From UHGV virus genome UHGV-0099692: a stretch of 24,703 bases of DNA, one strand, 5' to 3'. A program made the position numbers and the translations under genes. The stretch is from a virus. A model generated the notes under the pieces. It had not been told where the DNA came from. It made no database searches and worked only from the letters and a program-made list of their open reading frames with translations. Shown here in pieces: positions 1,867 through 7,027 of this stretch; positions within the stretch are counted from its first letter, which is position 1; the number at the start of each line of letters is the position of its first letter.

Positions 1867-2949
1867 TTAGAACTGGTAAACCATACCTACAGCAACGATA
1901 TCATCGGTAGCAACGCCAGATGCTTTCGTGAAATCGCTCTTATCAATCAGGTTGATTTTGTAATCAACAAAAGTGGACATATTTTTGTTGAAGTAATAGG
2001 TTGCACCTACATCAATATATTCAACCAGGTCCTGATCACCCCACGCACCCAAGTCTTTTCCTTTAGATTGCAGGTAAGCAACGGACGGACGCAGACCGAA
2101 GTCGAACTGATATTGTGCAACTACTTCGAAGTTTTGTGCTTTGTTGGCAATATGGTTATTACCAAAAACAGTCATGTTCTGGGTTTCAGAATAGGTGGTA
2201 GCCAGATAGATGTTGTTCGCATCATATTTCAGACCAGCTGCCCATACTTCAGCATTTTGACCAGATGCATTCAGGCTGTTGTTACCGTAGATAACCTGAT
2301 TATTAGTGCGGTCAGATTTAGCATAGGTTGCACCTACACCGAATCCTTCATACTCATAAGTAGTGGAGAAACCGAAACCATCACCATTAGCTTCAGTTAC
2401 GTCAGTGCGGTCATTTTTACCCTGATACTGAGCAGCAAAGTTCAGACCATCAACCAGACCAAAGAAGTCATTGTTACGATAAGTTGCAACACCTGTGGTG
2501 CGACCAGTCATGAATACATCTGTTTGGGTCCAGGTATCGCCACCGAATTCTGGCAGAACGTCGGTCCATGCACCAATATCGTATGCTACACCGTAGTTAC
2601 GGCCATAATCGATGGAGCCGTAGTCACCGAATTTCAGGCCAGCGAAGGCAAGACGGGTTTTATCTTTGGAGGAACCTTGAGATTCAGCGCGGTTGCCTTT
2701 GAATTCATATTCCCACTGACCGAAACCAGTCAGTTGATCGTTGATTTGGGTTTCACCTTTGAAGCCAAGACGGGCATAAGTAGTATCACCATCATCTGCA
2801 TCATTAGAGGAGAAGTAGTGCTTAGCATTAACTTTCCCGTACAGATCCAGCTTGTTACTGTCTTTATTATAAATTTCAGCTGCCTGAGCAGACATCGCCA
2901 TCAGTACTGATGCAGCTACAGCAGAAATTGCCACTGTTAATTTTTTCAT
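1867..2949 (-). CDS. nmpC: Outer-membrane general porin, NmpC/OmpD/OmpC family (360 aa), apparently intact
   Basis: Minus-strand ORF; start taken at [30 protein letters not shown] (Sec signal peptide, ATG complement at 2947-2949); porin motifs ([28 protein letters not shown]) and C-terminal ...VGMVYQF ending in Phe. The ORF-track start at 3009 adds 20 unsupported residues. Confidence 0.93.
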
Positions 2950-3375
2950 CGTGAGCCCTTTTTTTGAACTATTATTAAAAAATGATGTCACTGCGCGATA
3001 AATATTCATCTAATCAATGTGATTATTTCAAGATGTAAGTTTTGGTTTCTCATTTGATTTGTGAAGTAGATCTCTATTTTTATCTGAACTTTTTCTATCG
3101 AATCCTATTCATGGCTCTTGGCTGAATAAAAATAAATCTATTAGCCAATTTATATTAATGGCTGTTATTTATAAGTGCTCTATAATTTGAAGGTTCAATT
3201 TAAACCAGCTAAAAATAACGCTGGAAATTATTTGTTGGTTATTTGTTGAGATTTGCTTATGTATTTGTAGTGGTGTTTTCAATACTCGGTAGCATTCTCG
3301 CAAATATCATTTAGTGGTTTACGTACGTAAAAAATTGGTTATGCTGTTAAGAGTGGTTACTTCGTCACACAGCTT

Positions 3376-3400: not shown

Positions 3401-3536
3401 CATTTTTTGAGTCTCGATATTAGCTGATAACCCAATACCTGAGTTATTCACTGACTCCGAGTCTGTTACGTTTCTGCTTTTTTGCGATACGTTGTATTCC
3501 CTCAATTTACACCCGCTTTGTCTGCGAGGTGGGGTT

Positions 3537-3752
3537 ATGAAATCCATGGATAAGTTAACAACGGGTGTCGCCTATGGCACCTCAGCAGGTAGTGCCGGTT
3601 ACTGGTTTTTACAGCTGCTCGATAAAGTCACGCCCTCACAGTGGGCAGCAATAGGTGTGCTGGGTAGCCTGGTATTTGGCCTGCTGACGTACCTGACAAA
3701 CCTTTATTTCAAGATTAAAGAAGATAAGCGCAAGGCTGCGAGAGGTGAATAA
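3537..3752 (+). CDS. essD: Class II pinholin, phage 21 S-like, dual-start (71/68 aa)
   Basis: [71 protein letters not shown]; Met1-Lys-Ser-Met4 dual-start motif; two TM segments; basic C-terminus. ATG at 3537 with GAGGTGGGG upstream; the ORF-track start at 3492 is an extension. Confidence 0.9.
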
Positions 3753-4249
3753 TGCCTCCATCATTACGAAAAGCCGTTGCTGCTGCTATTGGTGGCGGAG
3801 CAATTGCTATAGCATCAGTGTTAATTACTGGCCCAAGTGGTAACGATGGTCTGGAAGGTGTCAGCTACATACCATACAAAGATATTGTTGGTGTATGGAC
3901 TGTATGTCACGGGCATACAGGAAAAGACATCATTCCCGGTAAAACGTATACCAAAGCAGAATGCAAAGCCCTCCTGAATAAAGACCTTGCCACGGTCGCC
4001 AGACAAATTAACCCGTACATCAAAGTCGATATACCGGAAACAATGCGCGGCGCTCTTTACTCATTCGTTTACAACGTGGGTGCTGGCAATTTCAGAACAT
4101 CGACGCTTCTTCGCAAAATAAACCAGGGCGATATCAAAGGCGCATGTGATCAGCTACGTCGCTGGACATATGCTGGCGGTAAGCAATGGAAAGGTCTCAT
4201 GACTCGTCGTGAGATTGAGCGTGAAATCTGTTTGTGGGGTCAGCAATGA
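3752..4249 (+). CDS. rrrD: SAR endolysin (T4-lysozyme/GH24 fold, phage 21 R-like), 165 aa
   Basis: Start overlaps the holin stop (TAATG); N-terminal Gly/Ala-rich weakly hydrophobic signal-anchor-release segment ([21 protein letters not shown]) followed by a lysozyme catalytic region (GLEGV...[16 protein letters not shown]). Confidence 0.9.
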
Positions 4250-4713
4250 ACAGAGTAACCGCGATTATCTCCGCTCTGGTTATCTGCATCATCGTCTGCC
4301 TGTCATGGGCTGTTAATCATTACCGTGATAACGCCATTACCTACAAAGCCCAGCGCGACAAAAATGCCAGAGAACTGAAGCTGGCGAACGCGGCAATTAC
4401 TGACATGCAGATGCGTCAGCGTGATGTTGCTGCGCTCGATGCAAAATACACGAAGGAGTTAGCTGATGCGAAAGCTGAAAATGATGCTCTTCGTCGCAAG
4501 CTTGATAATGGTGGCAGGGTGCTCGTCAAAGGAAAATGCCCTGTGCCATCCTCAGCCGAAACCTCCAGCGCCTCCGGCATGGGCAATGATGCCACCGTCG
4601 AACTCTCTCCAGTTGCTGGACGAAACGTTCTCGGTATCCGGGACGGAATTATCCGCGACCAAACAGCACTGAGAACGCTTCAGGAATACATCAGGACGCA
4701 ATGCCTTCGATGA
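4246..4713 (+). CDS. rzpD: Rz-like inner-membrane spanin (i-spanin), 155 aa
   Basis: ATG overlaps the endolysin stop (ATGA); N-terminal TM helix ([20 protein letters not shown]) then a charged coiled-coil-like periplasmic domain; directly after the endolysin. Confidence 0.85.
4466..4672 (+). CDS. rzoD: Rz1-like outer-membrane lipoprotein spanin (o-spanin), embedded in the +1 frame of Rz
   Basis: AAGGAG at 4453-4458 then ATG at 4466; [19 protein letters not shown] has a lipobox (VAGC); proline-rich mature region ([16 protein letters not shown]) typical of Rz1; entirely inside Rz in another frame. Confidence 0.8.
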
Positions 4714-4931
4714 TAGCGATAATTTTACTCATCATCCTTCACATCTGGCTCTGTAGACAGGGTGGTGATCACTTCTGGAGTGAATCCAGATTTAACATCT
4801 CATTGCTGATGCTTGATATTGAGCATCTTGCGCGCGGTAAGGGGCTGCGTTGAGATAAGAGCCAGTCATCACAAACACCAGGATTTAGCCTCGCATTCGC
4901 GGGGCTTTTTATTGCAACAAAGGTAAAGACG

Positions 4932-5219
4932 ATGGATGAAGAATATCGTAAAGACCTGCAATTGTGGTTTGGCCTGACGCATGCGTCGTTCTGCGTGATG
5001 CCGAGAGTATTCATGGAGGCTATGCCGCAAGAATGGCAAGAGAAGATGGCGCAGTTGCTTTTTGAGTATGGCGACACGATCAAAACGGATGTCTGCGGAG
5101 TTCACTGCTGTTTCGTTACTGCCAAAGACGGCAACAACCGCTTTATGAGGATGCCAGAAGATATTCTGAACTATCGTCATCCCCGGCGTGAGTTCATCGA
5201 ATCATTTCTGAAGAAGTAG
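4932..5219 (+). CDS. Hypothetical protein (95 aa), function unknown
   Basis: Only substantial + strand ORF in this interval, co-directional with the late operon; four Cys (C21, C55, C59, C60). No family recognised from memory. Confidence 0.5.
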   Translation: MDEEYRKDLQLWFGLTHASFCVMPRVFMEAMPQEWQEKMAQLLFEYGDTIKTDVCGVHCCFVTAKDGNNRFMRMPEDILNYRHPRREFIESFLKK

Positions 5220-5312
5220 CCATTACAAAGTCTATCTGCGGGGGGCTTGATAAAGGTGCTTTCACCTCGCTTAGCATGGTATGTTCTGACTACCAACTTT
5301 TTGGGAGGACAC

Positions 5313-5537
5313 ATGGAACTGATAAATGGACGGCCAGGCAGAGATTTTATAGTGGGAACATATACCTACTCAGAAATTAAAGATCTTAACTTCATGGCTA
5401 AGGAAGAGAAAAGAGCTCGTGAAGAGCTAAAGCATCGGGGTTACGAATTGGCGTATATCAAGGCGGACTCTGAATGTAACGGGATGTTTGTCAGGGCGTA
5501 CCGGGTCTATACTGACAAAGCGCCATCTAATGTCTAA
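5313..5537 (+). CDS. Hypothetical small protein (74 aa), function unknown
   Basis: ATG at 5313 preceded by GGGAGGA (5303-5309); MELINGRPGRDFIVGTYTYSEIKDLNFMAKEEKRAREELKHRGYELAYIK...; the ORF-track start at 5247 lacks an RBS. Confidence 0.5.
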   Translation: MELINGRPGRDFIVGTYTYSEIKDLNFMAKEEKRAREELKHRGYELAYIKADSECNGMFVRAYRVYTDKAPSNV

Positions 5538-5672
5538 ATATACCTCGGGCGGTTTTTTACGTTCATTACCGTACGCAATTACAGCAGGCATTCATTGAGT
5601 GCCTGTGATAATGATTTATCAACGTGCTTGCAAACGGTATTCTAGACCTCCAATTATCCTAAGGAGGTTTTT

Positions 5673-6077
5673 GTGGTTAAAAATTTAGAATACATGAAGG
5701 GGATGCTTGAGGTATTTTTGAAAGCGAAAACTCCCTTTATATCTACAAAAGACTTAGCTAATGCGGGGTACGATATCTGCTCGAATGAAGGGATGTTTCA
5801 TTATCTACTTCTTATTGAGCAAGGTTATATCAGTAATAAAGATCTAATAACGGATGACATAACTAAACTGGGCTACATGCGCCATTGTGGCCATATGCTA
5901 GATATGGGTACCGACGTGCGACTATCTGCGCAGGGACAAGAATTCGCCCAGGCATTAAATGAACCTACGGTTTTTGAGAAATTAAAGTCAATGAGCGATG
6001 CCCCTTTGAGTACAATCAAAGATGTTGGGCTGGAGTTAACGAAGGCCTATTTAAAGAAGAAATTTGGCCTCGAGTAA
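5673..6077 (+). CDS. Hypothetical protein (134 aa) in an AT-rich segment, function unknown
   Basis: GTG start 7 nt after a canonical AAGGAGG (5660-5666); composition markedly more AT-rich than flanking phage genes; no TM segment or signal peptide; no recognised family. Confidence 0.55.
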   Translation: MVKNLEYMKGMLEVFLKAKTPFISTKDLANAGYDICSNEGMFHYLLLIEQGYISNKDLITDDITKLGYMRHCGHMLDMGTDVRLSAQGQEFAQALNEPTVFEKLKSMSDAPLSTIKDVGLELTKAYLKKKFGLE

Positions 6078-6137
6078 AATTTCTACCCTCACGAGTTAAG
6101 TTGTTTTGTGATGGTTATTCGCAATGAATATCTTTAG

Positions 6138-6164
6138 CCACTGGCATTTGCTGGTGGTTTTTTT
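6138..6164 (+). terminator. Possible intrinsic terminator after the AT-rich ORF
   Basis: CCACTGGCA-tt-TGCTGGTGG imperfect hairpin (G-U pairs needed) followed by a 7-T run (6158-6164). Confidence 0.35.
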
Positions 6165-6261
6165 ATGCGCATCCCTCGCGCACCACAAAGGGAGTCTTTC
6201 AGTAGTGATTCTGAATATCAGTGTGATAAACGTATTTGACAATCATTATCATTTTTGGTGG

Positions 6262-6301
6262 GTCCTTTCCGGCGATCCGACAGGTTACGGGGCGGCGACC
6301 T
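6262..6301. other. cos site: cosQ-like region plus cosN; 12-nt cohesive end GGGCGGCGACCT at 6290-6301
   Basis: GGTCCTTTCCGGCGATCCGACAGGTTACG|GGGCGGCGACCTCGCGG matches, from memory, the lambda right-end/left-end junction almost base for base; lies directly upstream of the Nu1 homologue as in lambda. Confidence 0.85.
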
Positions 6302-6336
6302 CGCGGTTTTTCACTATTTATGAAAATTTTTCAGGG

Positions 6337-6455
6337 AAAATCGTGTCGGTACTTCTCGAATATAACTTTTTGTTTTTTTTTAATATTGCATCCGTAAAGG
6401 TCCGACATGAAAGTGTCCGAAAATGCCTTTTTCTGGCGTTTTCATGTCGGGCCTT
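6337..6455. promoter_or_regulatory. cosB-like region with repeated GTCCGACATGAAA-type elements (candidate terminase small-subunit binding sites)
   Basis: Seen directly: GGTCCGACATGAAA (6399-6412) and its inverted partner TTTCATGTCGGGCC (6442-6455), one mismatch; related copies AAAATCGTGTCGGT (6337-6350) and GTGTCCGAAAATG (6413-6425). Located between cosN and Nu1. Confidence 0.4.
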
Positions 6456-6478
6456 GTATTTGATAATGGGTTGTTTTC

Positions 6479-7027
6479 ATGAAGGTTAATAAAAAGAGGC
6501 TTGCCGAAATTTTCAACGTGGACCCGCGGACGATTGAACGCTGGCAGTCTCAGGGACTCCCTTGCGCCTCCAAAGGTAGTAAGGGCATTGAATCTGTATT
6601 TGATACTGCCATGGTAATTCAGTGGTATGCGCAGAGGGAAACTGATATCGAAAACGAAAAGCTCCGCAAAGAACTGGACGATTTGCGTGCGGCAGCGGAG
6701 TCAGATTTACAACCCGGCACCATTGACTATGAACGCTACCGGCTCACAAAAGCGCAGGCAGATGCGCAGGAACTGAAAAATGCCCGTGAAGACGGAGTAG
6801 TGCTGGAAACTGAACTGTTTACCTTCATTCTGCAACGTGTGGCACAGGAGATTTCGGGGATACTTGTGCGTGTGCCGTTGACATTACAGCGTAAATATCC
6901 GGACATTTCACCATCACACCTTGATGTGGTGAAAACTGAAATCGCGAAAGCCTCCAATGTTTCAGCTAAGGCCGGTGAAAACGTGGGCGGGTGGATCGAT
7001 GATTTCAGACGCGCAGAAGGCAGCTAA
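6479..7027 (+). CDS. nu1: Terminase small subunit (lambda Nu1 homologue), 182 aa
   Basis: [28 protein letters not shown]... N-terminal winged-HTH; strong similarity to remembered lambda Nu1 (e.g. [28 protein letters not shown]); immediately downstream of cos. Confidence 0.93.

What the first reader, a model, noticed from the sequence alone, without database searches (positions are those of the whole stretch)
4932..5537. Two co-directional small ORFs of unknown function downstream of the spanins
ORFs 4932-5219 (95 aa, four Cys including a CGVHCC cluster) and 5313-5537 (74 aa, good GGGAGGA RBS) sit where lambda carries bor and DLP12 carries borD, ybcV and ybcW, yet resemble none of those as far as I can recall. 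A candidate intrinsic terminator (AGCCTCGC-attc-GCGGGGCT followed by TTTTT, about 4886-4910) precedes them, so they may be expressed separately from the lysis genes. They could be a small accessory module acquired independently of the AT-rich ORF further right.
Basis: partly seen in the sequence, partly recalled or inferred. Interest (0 to 1): 0.45.

Follow-up and report, generated by a model that had tools for sequence, protein, structure and literature searches.

The report
Two unrelated small prophage accessory genes
Both small reading frames after the lysis genes of this E. coli lambdoid prophage are real, conserved phage genes of unknown function, but they are unrelated single-gene inserts that move independently, which is ordinary for this variable stretch of such phages.

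Summary
ORF1 (4932-5219, 95 aa), ORF2 (5313-5537, 74 aa, GGGAGGA Shine-Dalgarno) and the intrinsic terminator (4887-4906 plus T-run) are all present, between Rz/Rz1 and Nu1 of a lambdoid late operon.

Both ORFs are under purifying selection (dN/dS 0.04-0.19). ORF1 belongs to a broad uncharacterised phage family: phrog_3527, 672 clusters, no Pfam. It occurs stand-alone or as the C-terminal domain of longer proteins, in early, replication and late regions. Its Cys cluster is not conserved.

ORF2 belongs to a very rare family (phrog_6100; five hits among 1.84 billion representatives). It folds confidently into a generic alpha/beta sandwich. It is a "hypothetical protein" in GenBank but absent from RefSeq annotation.

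The two are not a pair. ORF1 is in 72 of 5,426 complete E. coli genomes, ORF2 in 36, and both together in 26, mostly the O104:H4 clone. In E. coli ORF2 travels with the AT-rich ORF3, not with ORF1.

The terminator ends 21 nt before ORF1, leaving no room for a promoter. ORF1 is therefore most likely made only from Q-antiterminated late transcripts.

Mosaic breakpoints fall on a recurrent bipartite hairpin (CATTACA-stem-loop-TGATAATG). Function is unresolved, and overall this is ordinary.

The parts
4887..4910 (+). Intrinsic terminator directly after the spanin genes. It is also a mosaic joint.
   Evidence: 8-bp stem with 6 G-C pairs, loop of 4, T-run; -15.2 kcal/mol, z = -3.6. Homology to L018 starts at 4888 and homology to L015 ends at 4915. 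phi80 has an annotated terminator in the same place after Rz.
4932..5219 (+). ORF1: 95-aa soluble acidic protein, member of the phrog_3527 domain family (RefSeq WP_000343118.1, hypothetical protein).
   Evidence: phrog_3527 E 2.5e-56. 672 clusters found with a family profile, none with a Pfam domain. Homologues in 27 phage records from Escherichia, Salmonella, Klebsiella, Cronobacter, Vibrio, Pseudomonas, Stenotrophomonas and Acinetobacter phages and one unclassified phage. dN/dS 0.13-0.14. Annotated by PGAP. pI 5.9; maximum Kyte-Doolittle 19-residue hydropathy 0.99.
5222..5253 (+). Junction hairpin, 'a' type (ATTACA-stem-loop-TGATAA). It is degenerate in this window and marks the ORF1/ORF2 breakpoint.
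   Evidence: Pattern match: 2 in the window against 0.01 expected. Weak fold here (-10.9 kcal/mol, z = -0.4), but the homologous position folds well in L009 (-24.7 kcal/mol, z = -3.8) and moderately in L004 (-13.7 kcal/mol, z = -1.8). The ORF1 block ends at 5248-5253 and the ORF2 block starts at 5218-5221.
5277..5285 (+). Candidate extended -10 element TGGTATGTT in front of ORF2. This is inferred only.
   Evidence: TGGTA is invariant in the alignment of the window, L004 and L009, which are 75-82% identical overall. The two-hexamer scan did not report it. It is not recognisable upstream of the 50%-identical L019 homologue.
5303..5309 (+). Shine-Dalgarno sequence GGGAGGA of ORF2.
   Evidence: GGAGG is invariant in all aligned loci, 3-4 nt before the ATG.
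5313..5537 (+). ORF2: 74-aa protein of the rare phrog_6100 family, with a beta-beta-alpha-beta-beta-beta fold.
   Evidence: phrog_6100 E 1.1e-55 over its full length. dN/dS 0.04-0.19. AlphaFold2 pLDDT 86. Five hits in 1.84 billion representatives. GenBank AFS57516.1 and UniRef A0A2H3LZG5 call it hypothetical, and it was seen on 439 contigs. No RefSeq feature in any of the 30 listed genomes, out of 36 that carry it.
5543..5558 (+). Decayed remnant of ORF2's own intrinsic terminator.
   Evidence: In L009 the homologous site GCCGCC-TCCG-GGCGG-T6 folds at -15.2 kcal/mol, z = -2.7. In the window the left arm is lost (-5.7 kcal/mol, z = +0.3).
5578..5611 (+). Junction hairpin, 'b' type, intact: outer stem, then a 10-bp inner stem. 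Its 3' flank reads TGTGATAAT, which resembles an extended -10 element.
   Evidence: Whole element with flanks -17.3 kcal/mol, z = -2.9; 34-nt core -15.3 kcal/mol. The same element is in 190 complete E. coli genomes, never under an annotated feature in the rows listed. It is also in phi80 between rha and orf63.
5673..6077 (+). ORF3: 134 aa, phrog_585, about 39% G+C. It is the usual companion of ORF2 in E. coli and lies outside the finding.
   Evidence: phrog_585 E 3e-31. Block 5220-6386 is shared with L015 and L016 at 97.5-97.7% identity. Composition. A terminator-like site follows at 6136-6159.

Best explanation
The interval holds two unrelated, independently mobile single-gene cassettes. They sit in the variable segment between the lysis cassette and the terminase genes of a lambdoid prophage late operon.

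ORF1 is a soluble 95-aa representative of a widespread, uncharacterised phage domain. The domain is marked by conserved aromatic, Pro-Arg, Trp-Gln and N-Y-R-H-P positions, with no conserved Cys. ORF1 has no promoter of its own: an intrinsic terminator ends 21 nt before its start codon. It is therefore most likely made only during lytic growth, when Q-modified RNA polymerase from pR' reads through that terminator. I infer that it is a lytic-cycle accessory protein that acts by binding a partner rather than by catalysis.

ORF2 is a 74-aa alpha/beta-sandwich protein of a very rare enterobacterial prophage family. It lies in its own compact cassette: hairpin, conserved 5' leader with a possible extended -10 element, strong Shine-Dalgarno sequence, ORF, and a terminator that is intact in relatives. 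It is moron-like, and in E. coli it is inherited together with ORF3.

The cassettes are joined at short conserved hairpin elements, which are where mosaic exchange between prophages has occurred.

Shown: coding status, family membership, independence of the two ORFs, breakpoints, the terminator. Inferred: timing of expression, binding-type function.
For: Coding status. dN/dS is 0.04-0.19 for ORF2 and 0.13-0.14 for ORF1, and ORF1 protein conservation extends to Vibrio and Pseudomonas phages.

Families. ORF1 matches phrog_3527 and ORF2 matches phrog_6100. The ORF1 profile finds 672 clusters. The ORF2 profile finds 5 hits in 1.84 billion representatives.

Independence. E. coli genome counts are 72, 36 and 26. 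ORF2 relatives follow the lysis genes without ORF1. ORF1 relatives occur without ORF2 in P22-like prophages, in early-left regions after Ead/Ea22 genes, next to DNA polymerase I or TerS, or fused at the C-terminus of 243- and 344-aa proteins. Among 46 distinct upstream neighbours of ORF1 relatives, 16 are spanin families. The 48 downstream neighbours share no common family.

Breakpoints. ORF1 block 4678/4888-5248/5253; ORF2 block 5218-5559; ORF2+ORF3 block 5220-6386.

Expression. Terminator confirmed, with 21 nt to the ATG. phi80 has the same post-Rz terminator, and there genes in this stretch, upstream of the packaging module, are placed in the Q-controlled late operon (PMC11364771). Intra-operon terminators are noted as common in P22-like late operons (PMC8022706).

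No sign of an enzyme, membrane protein or known defence protein. No Pfam, NCBIfam or PADLOC match. Hydropathy is below transmembrane level.
Confidence: 0.6

Rival explanations
1. The two ORFs form one functional two-gene accessory module, acquired together and expressed from its own transcription unit behind the terminator.
For: They are adjacent, co-directional and 100% conserved as a block in 26 complete E. coli genomes.
Against: Many of the listed 26 genomes are O104:H4 isolates, so they are far from independent. Each ORF occurs without the other in E. coli and other hosts. Mosaic breakpoints fall between them. G+C differs (about 49% against 44%). There is no room for a promoter between the terminator and ORF1.
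Confidence: 0.05
2. They are lysogenic-conversion morons like lambda bor. On this reading they are expressed from the repressed prophage and benefit the host, for example by superinfection exclusion or anti-phage defence.
For: The lysis-to-packaging gap is a documented moron and defence hotspot in lambdoid phages (PMC11364771). The ORF2 cassette has a conserved leader with an extended -10-like TGGTATGTT, a strong Shine-Dalgarno sequence, lower G+C, and its own terminator in relatives.
Against: ORF1 has no promoter and sits behind a strong terminator. ORF1 relatives occur in 27 phage records from diverse genera, several in replication or DNA-metabolism neighbourhoods, which argues for a phage-cycle role. 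There are no PADLOC hits. No membrane segment was found by hydropathy. No signal peptide or lipobox is apparent on reading the sequences; this was not tested with a predictor.
Confidence: 0.2
3. One or both are counter-defence or self-immunity antidotes made late, like phi80 AtiEcA. AtiEcA is a 76-aa co-directional late gene in the same position that neutralises a prophage-encoded tail-assembly inhibitor.
For: Size, orientation and position match. phi80 shares the post-Rz terminator and the b-type hairpin (PMC11364771). One ORF1 relative lies next to an Acb2/Tad1-type gene.
Against: ORF2 has no similarity to AtiEcA (hhalign probability 0.6%), and there were no tblastn hits of ORF2 in 50,697 phage records. 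There is no divergently transcribed defence-like gene of at least 60 aa here: the longer minus-strand ORFs at 4769-5083 and 4869-5180 lie antisense within ORF1, whose plus-strand frame is the one conserved.
Confidence: 0.1
4. The ORFs are non-functional remnants or chance frames, and the conserved DNA serves another purpose such as regulatory RNA or recombination linkers.
For: RefSeq PGAP does not call ORF2 in any listed genome. The ORF1 copy in L018 is frameshifted. Two ORF2 derivatives are deletion chimeras.
Against: dN/dS is well below 1 for both, and substitutions in ORF2 concentrate at third codon positions. The Shine-Dalgarno sequence and start codon are conserved. The ORF2 fold is confident. 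ORF1 is conserved as protein across genera. There are no Rfam matches.
Confidence: 0.03

Closest known systems
Morons of lambdoid phages (lambda bor/lom; HK97 and HK022 morons, as defined by Juhala and Hendrix; definition from my own knowledge and as quoted in PMC2629481)
   Same: Small genes present in some but not other related phages. They are inserted inside the late operon between conserved modules and bounded by terminator-like hairpins. The ORF2 cassette also has lower G+C.
   Different: ORF1 has no promoter of its own. Neither ORF has a hydrophobic segment of membrane-spanning strength. Expression in the lysogen is untested. Both ORFs are co-directional with the late operon, whereas bor is on the opposite strand.
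phi80 Tai/Ati locus upstream of the packaging module (PMC11364771)
   Same: Same genomic slot. There is a terminator right after Rz/Rz1, the same b-type junction hairpin, and a 76-aa co-directional late gene (atiEcA).
   Different: No sequence similarity to AtiEcA. There is no divergent tai-like defence gene in the window.
PHROG families 3527, 33008 and 10794 (ORF1 domain) and 6100 (ORF2), all annotated 'unknown function'
   Same: ORF1 matches phrog_3527 at E 2.5e-56. ORF2 matches phrog_6100 end to end at E 1.1e-55.
   Different: In the three ORF1-related profiles the domain is the C-terminal third or so of a 178-233-position profile. Here it stands alone, as it does in most enterobacterial members.
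Intergenic processing or cassette-boundary hairpins (T7 RNase III sites; integron attC sites). This is an architectural analogy recalled from my own knowledge, for the junction hairpins only.
   Same: Imperfect long hairpins lie between genes. Outer arms are conserved and inner stems vary with compensatory changes. One hairpin sits at the 3' side of each cassette.
   Different: No RNase III cleavage and no integron-type integrase has been shown or found. The sequences are unrelated to attC or to the T7 R sites.

Membership tests
phrog_3527-type phage domain (ORF1) | Significant match to the family profile over the whole conserved domain | tested here: met
   E 2.5e-56, residues 1-95 against profile positions 139-230 of 233.
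phrog_3527-type phage domain (ORF1) | Family-invariant residues present: F13, P24-R25, M31-P32, W35-Q36, L42-L43, P75, Y81, P84 | tested here: met
   All are invariant in the 22-sequence alignment, which includes Vibrio, Stenotrophomonas and Pseudomonas phage members.
phrog_6100 (ORF2) | Full-length profile match | tested here: met
   E 1.1e-55, residues 1-74 against profile positions 1-74 of 74.
Moron (independently expressed insert in a phage operon) | Present between genes that are adjacent, or differently filled, in related phages | tested here: met
   L015 and L016 lack ORF1; L002, L017 and L018 lack ORF2; breakpoints are sharp.
Moron (independently expressed insert in a phage operon) | Own promoter | tested here: inconclusive
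   ORF1: 21 nt between terminator and ATG, so none is possible there. ORF2: only a conserved TGGTATGTT extended -10-like motif, not found by the two-hexamer scan.
Moron (independently expressed insert in a phage operon) | Own terminator | tested here: inconclusive
   ORF2: intact in L009 and L019, decayed in the window. ORF1: followed by a hairpin without a T-run.
Moron (independently expressed insert in a phage operon) | Expressed from the repressed prophage | not testable with these tools
   This needs RNA-seq, TSS mapping or proteomics of lysogens.
Lambda Bor / DLP12 BorD, YbcV, YbcW | Sequence membership in the corresponding Pfam families; for Bor also a lipoprotein signal peptide | tested here: not met
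   No Pfam family at E <= 1 for ORF1; only a 0.26 chance hit for ORF2. No hydrophobic N-terminus.
Tai/Ati counter-defence pair (phi80) | Homology to AtiEcA and an adjacent divergent tai gene | tested here: not met
   hhalign probability 0.6%. There is no independent minus-strand gene between Rz and Nu1; the longer minus-strand ORFs lie antisense within ORF1.
   No Cys column is invariant or nearly invariant. C59 is Ser in most relatives, and distant members have no Cys at these positions.
Known anti-phage defence systems (PADLOC-DB v2) | Match to any defence-protein model | tested here: not met
   0 families at E <= 1 for ORF1, ORF2, ORF3 and the 50-aa ORF.
Small membrane protein (a Salmonella phage Sasha annotation predicts a TMD at residues 10-29 of its ORF1 homologue) | Hydrophobic segment of membrane-spanning strength | tested here: not met
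   The maximum 19-residue Kyte-Doolittle mean is 0.99, over LQLWFGLTHASFCVMPRVF, which contains the invariant Pro-Arg. The usual threshold of about 1.6 is from my own knowledge. The domain is also fused to the C-terminus of longer proteins with no detected membrane or Pfam domain.

The most novel reading that the evidence does not exclude
The lysis-to-terminase gap of enterobacterial lambdoid phages may be organised as an array of single-gene cassettes. Each cassette would be bounded by a dedicated bipartite hairpin: conserved outer arms CATTA/TAATG and a variable 9-10 bp inner stem with compensatory changes. At least three variants (a, b, c) occur in the E. coli prophage loci.

These hairpins would be functional signals rather than passive relics. 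Possible roles are substrates for cassette exchange, or RNA processing and stability sites of the late transcript. ORF1 and ORF2 would be two cassettes of this system.
Probability: 0.15. Interest if true: 0.6.

Novelty: new member of a known kind. Interest (0 to 1): 0.2.

Why it matters
The practical gains are modest.

(1) ORF2 is a selected, confidently folding 74-aa gene carried by the O104:H4 outbreak lineage. RefSeq's current annotation omits it, so it is a small annotation gap worth closing.

(2) ORF1 represents an unnamed phage protein domain with hundreds of sequence clusters and no Pfam entry. It could be registered as a family.

(3) The result corrects the idea that these are a module, or a metal-binding protein.

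(4) The junction hairpins give a concrete, testable handle on how accessory cassettes are shuffled or processed in the lambdoid late operon.

None of this overturns current understanding of lambdoid prophage mosaicism.

Tried and rejected
**Family and sequence searches**
- Pfam, NCBIfam and PADLOC scans of both ORFs found nothing meaningful.
- Scanning all 22 ORF1 family members against Pfam found nothing.
- Profile searches of PDB sequences gave only chance hits. The IcmE/DotG hit for ORF2 has no stretch passing threshold.
- Rfam found no family in 4400-6600.

**Structure**
- The AlphaFold2 model of ORF1 from 34 sequences is poor (pLDDT 49.8), so it was not used for fold search.
- The afdb50 library was unavailable.

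**Collection scans**
- tblastn of ORF2 against 50,697 phage records found no hit.
- A GTDB species-representative scan for ORF2 found no relative.
- An IMG/VR scan with the hairpin flank pattern was dominated by chance matches: 49 of 146 matches across all loci held at that point had a real hairpin. Its counts are therefore not used quantitatively.

**Specific hypotheses tested and dropped**
- ORF2 is not homologous to AtiEcA.
- I asked whether the N-terminal parts of the Pseudomonas phage fusion proteins are Ead/Ea22-like, which would link ORF1 to its frequent Ea22 neighbour. They share no family, so the link was rejected.
- The ORF2 chimeras P0005 and P0136 looked like possible domain swaps. 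P0005 lies in a heavily deleted prophage, so it is a deletion junction. The P0136 contig (2 kb) gave no context, and I treat it likewise by analogy.
- The alternative TTG start of ORF2 at 5247 (96 aa) was rejected. The extension overlaps the hairpin and is not conserved, and the called homologues (P0001-P0004) start at the ATG behind the conserved GGAGG.

**Literature**
- A search for the protein accessions and PHROG ids found no paper.

Full report
**Observation**

The window is a lambdoid prophage. The gene order is:
- holin, 3492-3752;
- lysozyme, 3752-4249 (PF00959);
- Rz, 4234-4713 (PF03245), with Rz1 embedded;
- a small hydrophobic 50-aa ORF, 4701-4853;
- the two ORFs of the finding;
- a 134-aa ORF (ORF3), 5673-6077;
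- Nu1, 6479-7027 (PF07471), and the large terminase subunit.

ORF1 (4932-5219, 95 aa, four Cys including CGVHCC) and ORF2 (5313-5537, 74 aa, GGGAGGA at 5303-5309) are exactly as described. The terminator is also real. Its stem spans 4887-4906 with 8 pairs, 6 of them G-C, and a T-run follows. It folds at -15.2 kcal/mol, z = -3.6. The stretch 4700-6200 is 100% identical to E. coli O104:H4 and a few other genomes.

**ORF1**

PGAP annotates ORF1 as hypothetical protein WP_000343118.1. It matches phrog_3527 at E 2.5e-56, and more weakly phrog_33008 and phrog_10794. In each case the match is to the C-terminal part of a longer profile.

tblastn finds it in 27 phage records:
- Escherichia phage HF4s, 94% identical, also right after the spanins;
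- Salmonella Sashavirus, Klebsiella and Cronobacter phages at 56-62% identity;
- Vibrio, Pseudomonas, Stenotrophomonas and Acinetobacter phages at 31-56%.

A profile of 22 diverse members retrieves 672 clusters. All are "hypothetical", and none has a Pfam domain.

In most members the domain is a stand-alone protein of about 95 aa. In Pseudomonas phages Dolphis and Psp6 it is the C-terminal domain of 243-aa and 344-aa proteins.

The genomic context varies:
- after spanins in lambdoid and P22-like prophages;
- directly upstream of TerS in Vibrio phage Seahorse;
- overlapping the start of DNA polymerase I in a Stenotrophomonas phage;
- in the early-left accessory region, right after Ead/Ea22 genes and near int, in Salmonella and Klebsiella prophages.

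Among 46 distinct upstream neighbours from IMG/VR loci, 16 are spanin families and 4 are Ead/Ea22. The 48 downstream neighbours share no common family. ORF1 is therefore a promiscuous single-gene cassette with no fixed partner.

The invariant residues are F13, P24-R25, M31-P32, W35-Q36, L42-L43, P75, Y81 and P84. No Cys is conserved, and the second Cys of "CC" is Ser in most relatives. dN/dS against close alleles is 0.13-0.14. Against distant homologues, synonymous sites are saturated while pN is 0.1-0.3.

The protein is acidic (pI 5.9). Its most hydrophobic 19-residue window scores 0.99, below transmembrane level. The AlphaFold2 model is poor (pLDDT 49.8), so no fold comparison was attempted.

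**ORF2**

ORF2 matches phrog_6100 end to end (E 1.1e-55). The family is very small:
- The word-indexed search of 5.8 billion proteins found 5 clusters.
- An exhaustive HMM search of 1.84 billion representatives found 5 hits. These are its own cluster, a 69-aa homologue with about half its residues identical from Raoultella (P0135), two truncated chimeras, and one repetitive 2,174-aa protein that I regard as spurious but did not inspect.
- There was no tblastn hit in 50,697 phage records.
- There was no relative in 185,579 species-representative genomes.

The homologues that are 78-82% identical and the Raoultella homologue all lie between the lysis genes and the terminase of other prophages, and none has ORF1 next to it. 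dN/dS is 0.04-0.19, and 20-33 of the substitutions fall at third codon positions against 6-13 at each other position. The GGAGG and the ATG are invariant.

The exact protein is deposited as "hypothetical protein" in GenBank and UniProt (AFS57516.1, A0A2H3LZG5) and was seen on 439 contigs. RefSeq annotates nothing there in any of the 30 listed genomes, out of 36 complete E. coli genomes that carry it.

**The two ORFs are not a pair**

ORF1 DNA is in 72 of 5,426 complete E. coli genomes and ORF2 DNA in 36. The contiguous block is in 26, mostly the O104:H4 clone. Pairwise blastn gives sharp breakpoints:
- The ORF1 block is 4678-5253 against P22-like phages, or 4888-5248 against L018. In L018 the block starts exactly at the terminator stem.
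- The ORF2 block is 5218-5559 against L009.
- In E. coli prophages that lack ORF1 (L015, L016), the shared block is 5220-6386, which is ORF2 plus ORF3.

ORF2 therefore travels with the AT-rich ORF3, not with ORF1. G+C falls stepwise: about 49% for ORF1, 44% for ORF2 and 39% for ORF3.

**Junction hairpins (outside the original claim)**

The breakpoints coincide with a recurrent element, CATTACA-[GC-rich stem-loop]-TGATAATG.
- The window has two copies, at 5222-5253 (stem decayed) and 5578-5611 (intact). Only 0.01 are expected by chance.
- L015 and L016 each have three copies, and phi80 has one between rha and orf63.
- The b-type copy is in 190 complete E. coli genomes and is unannotated in the rows listed.
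- At least three inner-stem variants (a, b, c) in the E. coli prophage loci, and further ones in IMG/VR contigs, share the same flanks. On 21 distinct copies, 92% of cells pair, against 33-48% when partners are slid. Seven pairs change on both sides.

One caveat applies: most of those 21 copies were chosen for having a stable hairpin, which inflates the paired fraction. The three different variants sitting in tandem in L015 were found by their flanks alone. No Rfam family matches. The role of these hairpins is unknown.

**Expression logic (inferred)**

Only 21 nt separate the terminator's T-run from ORF1's ATG. ORF1 therefore cannot have a promoter there, and any transcript from the promoter-like site at 4792-4820 would meet the terminator.

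In lambdoid phages the late operon is read by Q-modified, terminator-resistant polymerase. phi80 has an annotated terminator in the same place, and there genes in this stretch, upstream of the packaging module, are placed in the Q-controlled late operon (PMC11364771). Intra-operon terminators are reported as common, with unknown role, in P22-like phages (PMC8022706). ORF1 is therefore most likely a late, lytic-cycle product.

ORF2 has a conserved 60-nt leader with an invariant TGGTA, which reads as the extended -10-like TGGTATGTT at 5277-5285. In relatives it also has an intact terminator of its own. Independent, moron-type expression is therefore possible but unproven.

**Function**

No enzyme, membrane, defence or DNA-binding signature was found. 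I commit to the following reading: both are small accessory binding proteins that are non-essential for lysis or packaging.

ORF1 probably acts in the lytic cycle. Its relatives sit in many virulent-type phage genomes, often beside DNA-metabolism genes. ORF2 is a rare moron-like cassette.

The alternatives are lysogenic conversion or exclusion, an Ati-like antidote, or a functional pair. They are weighed in the rival explanations. The pair hypothesis is contradicted by distribution, and the non-coding hypothesis by the substitution pattern.

**Comparison and verdict**

This is the classic variable slot of lambdoid late operons. Lambda carries bor here, phi80 carries rha-tai-ati, and P22-like phages carry DUF2560 and others. 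Here the slot is filled with two database "hypothetical proteins".

Membership in the two PHROG families is met. Membership in Bor/YbcV/YbcW, Tai/Ati, PADLOC systems and Cys-metal proteins is not met. Moron status is met for mosaic insertion and inconclusive for promoter and terminator.

My overall rating is a new member of a known kind, with low interest. The most novel reading not excluded is that the bipartite hairpins are functional cassette-boundary signals.

Noticed in passing
window 5222-5253 and 5578-5611; L015 2270-2306, 2498-2529, 2854-2887; L016 2078-2110, 2498-2529, 2854-2887; L152 (phi80) 2802-2835: Recurrent bipartite hairpin CATTACA-[9-10 bp GC-rich stem-loop]-TGATAATG at the mosaic junctions between accessory cassettes. 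Several inner-stem variants carry compensatory changes. There is no Rfam match and no annotation under it in the E. coli rows listed. The b-type 3' flank reads TGTGATAAT, which resembles an extended -10 element.
   Followed up: partly
window 4701-4853 (+): A 50-aa ORF overlapping the Rz stop codon, with a strongly hydrophobic N-terminus (Kyte-Doolittle 2.07 over residues 1-19). RefSeq calls it hypothetical (WP_001390467.1). It lies just upstream of the terminator, and its region (4401-4915) is retained in prophages that lack ORF1.
   Followed up: no
window 5673-6077 (+), with a terminator-like site at 6136-6159: ORF3 (134 aa, phrog_585, about 39% G+C, strong TAAGGAGG Shine-Dalgarno sequence, GTG start) is inherited together with ORF2 in E. 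coli. It has only two distant tblastn hits among phage records (Yersinia 49%, Klebsiella 27%). No Pfam or PADLOC match.
   Followed up: partly
L141 385-567; L143 1209-1367: Two short ORFs keep only the C-terminal 31-36 codons of ORF2, fused to unrelated N-termini at nearly the same point (around R42-Y44). The L141 case is a deletion junction in a heavily decayed prophage, where a Cro-like helix-turn-helix N-terminus is followed by ORF3 and then the tail gene J. The L143 contig was too short to interpret.
   Followed up: partly
L015 2307-2497 and L016 2111-2497: Spacers of 190-390 nt lie between two junction hairpins. They contain no convincing ORF, and they occupy the slot that ORF1 fills in the window. 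They may be empty or decayed cassettes, or non-coding content.
   Followed up: no
window 1867-3009 (-): A 380-aa ORF on the opposite strand just upstream of the holin looks like an OmpC/NmpC-type porin with a signal peptide, as in DLP12-type prophages. This was recognised by eye only and was not scanned.
   Followed up: no
L144-L147 4308-4685; L013 3236-5494; L014 3362-3805: ORF1 relatives often sit immediately next to nucleic-acid enzymes: an HNH/endonuclease VII-like gene (phrog_2118, E 4e-58), DNA polymerase I, and the small terminase subunit. This is a weak guilt-by-association hint towards DNA metabolism.
   Followed up: partly
(query window 4700-6200): 1,957 of 5,426 E. coli genomes match some part of this 1.5-kb query, but only 26 match most of it. 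ORF1 (72 genomes), ORF2 (36) and the b-type hairpin (190) cannot account for this. I did not resolve which sub-segment is so widespread; it is probably the Rz end, 50-aa ORF and terminator, or the 3' end of the query.
   Followed up: no
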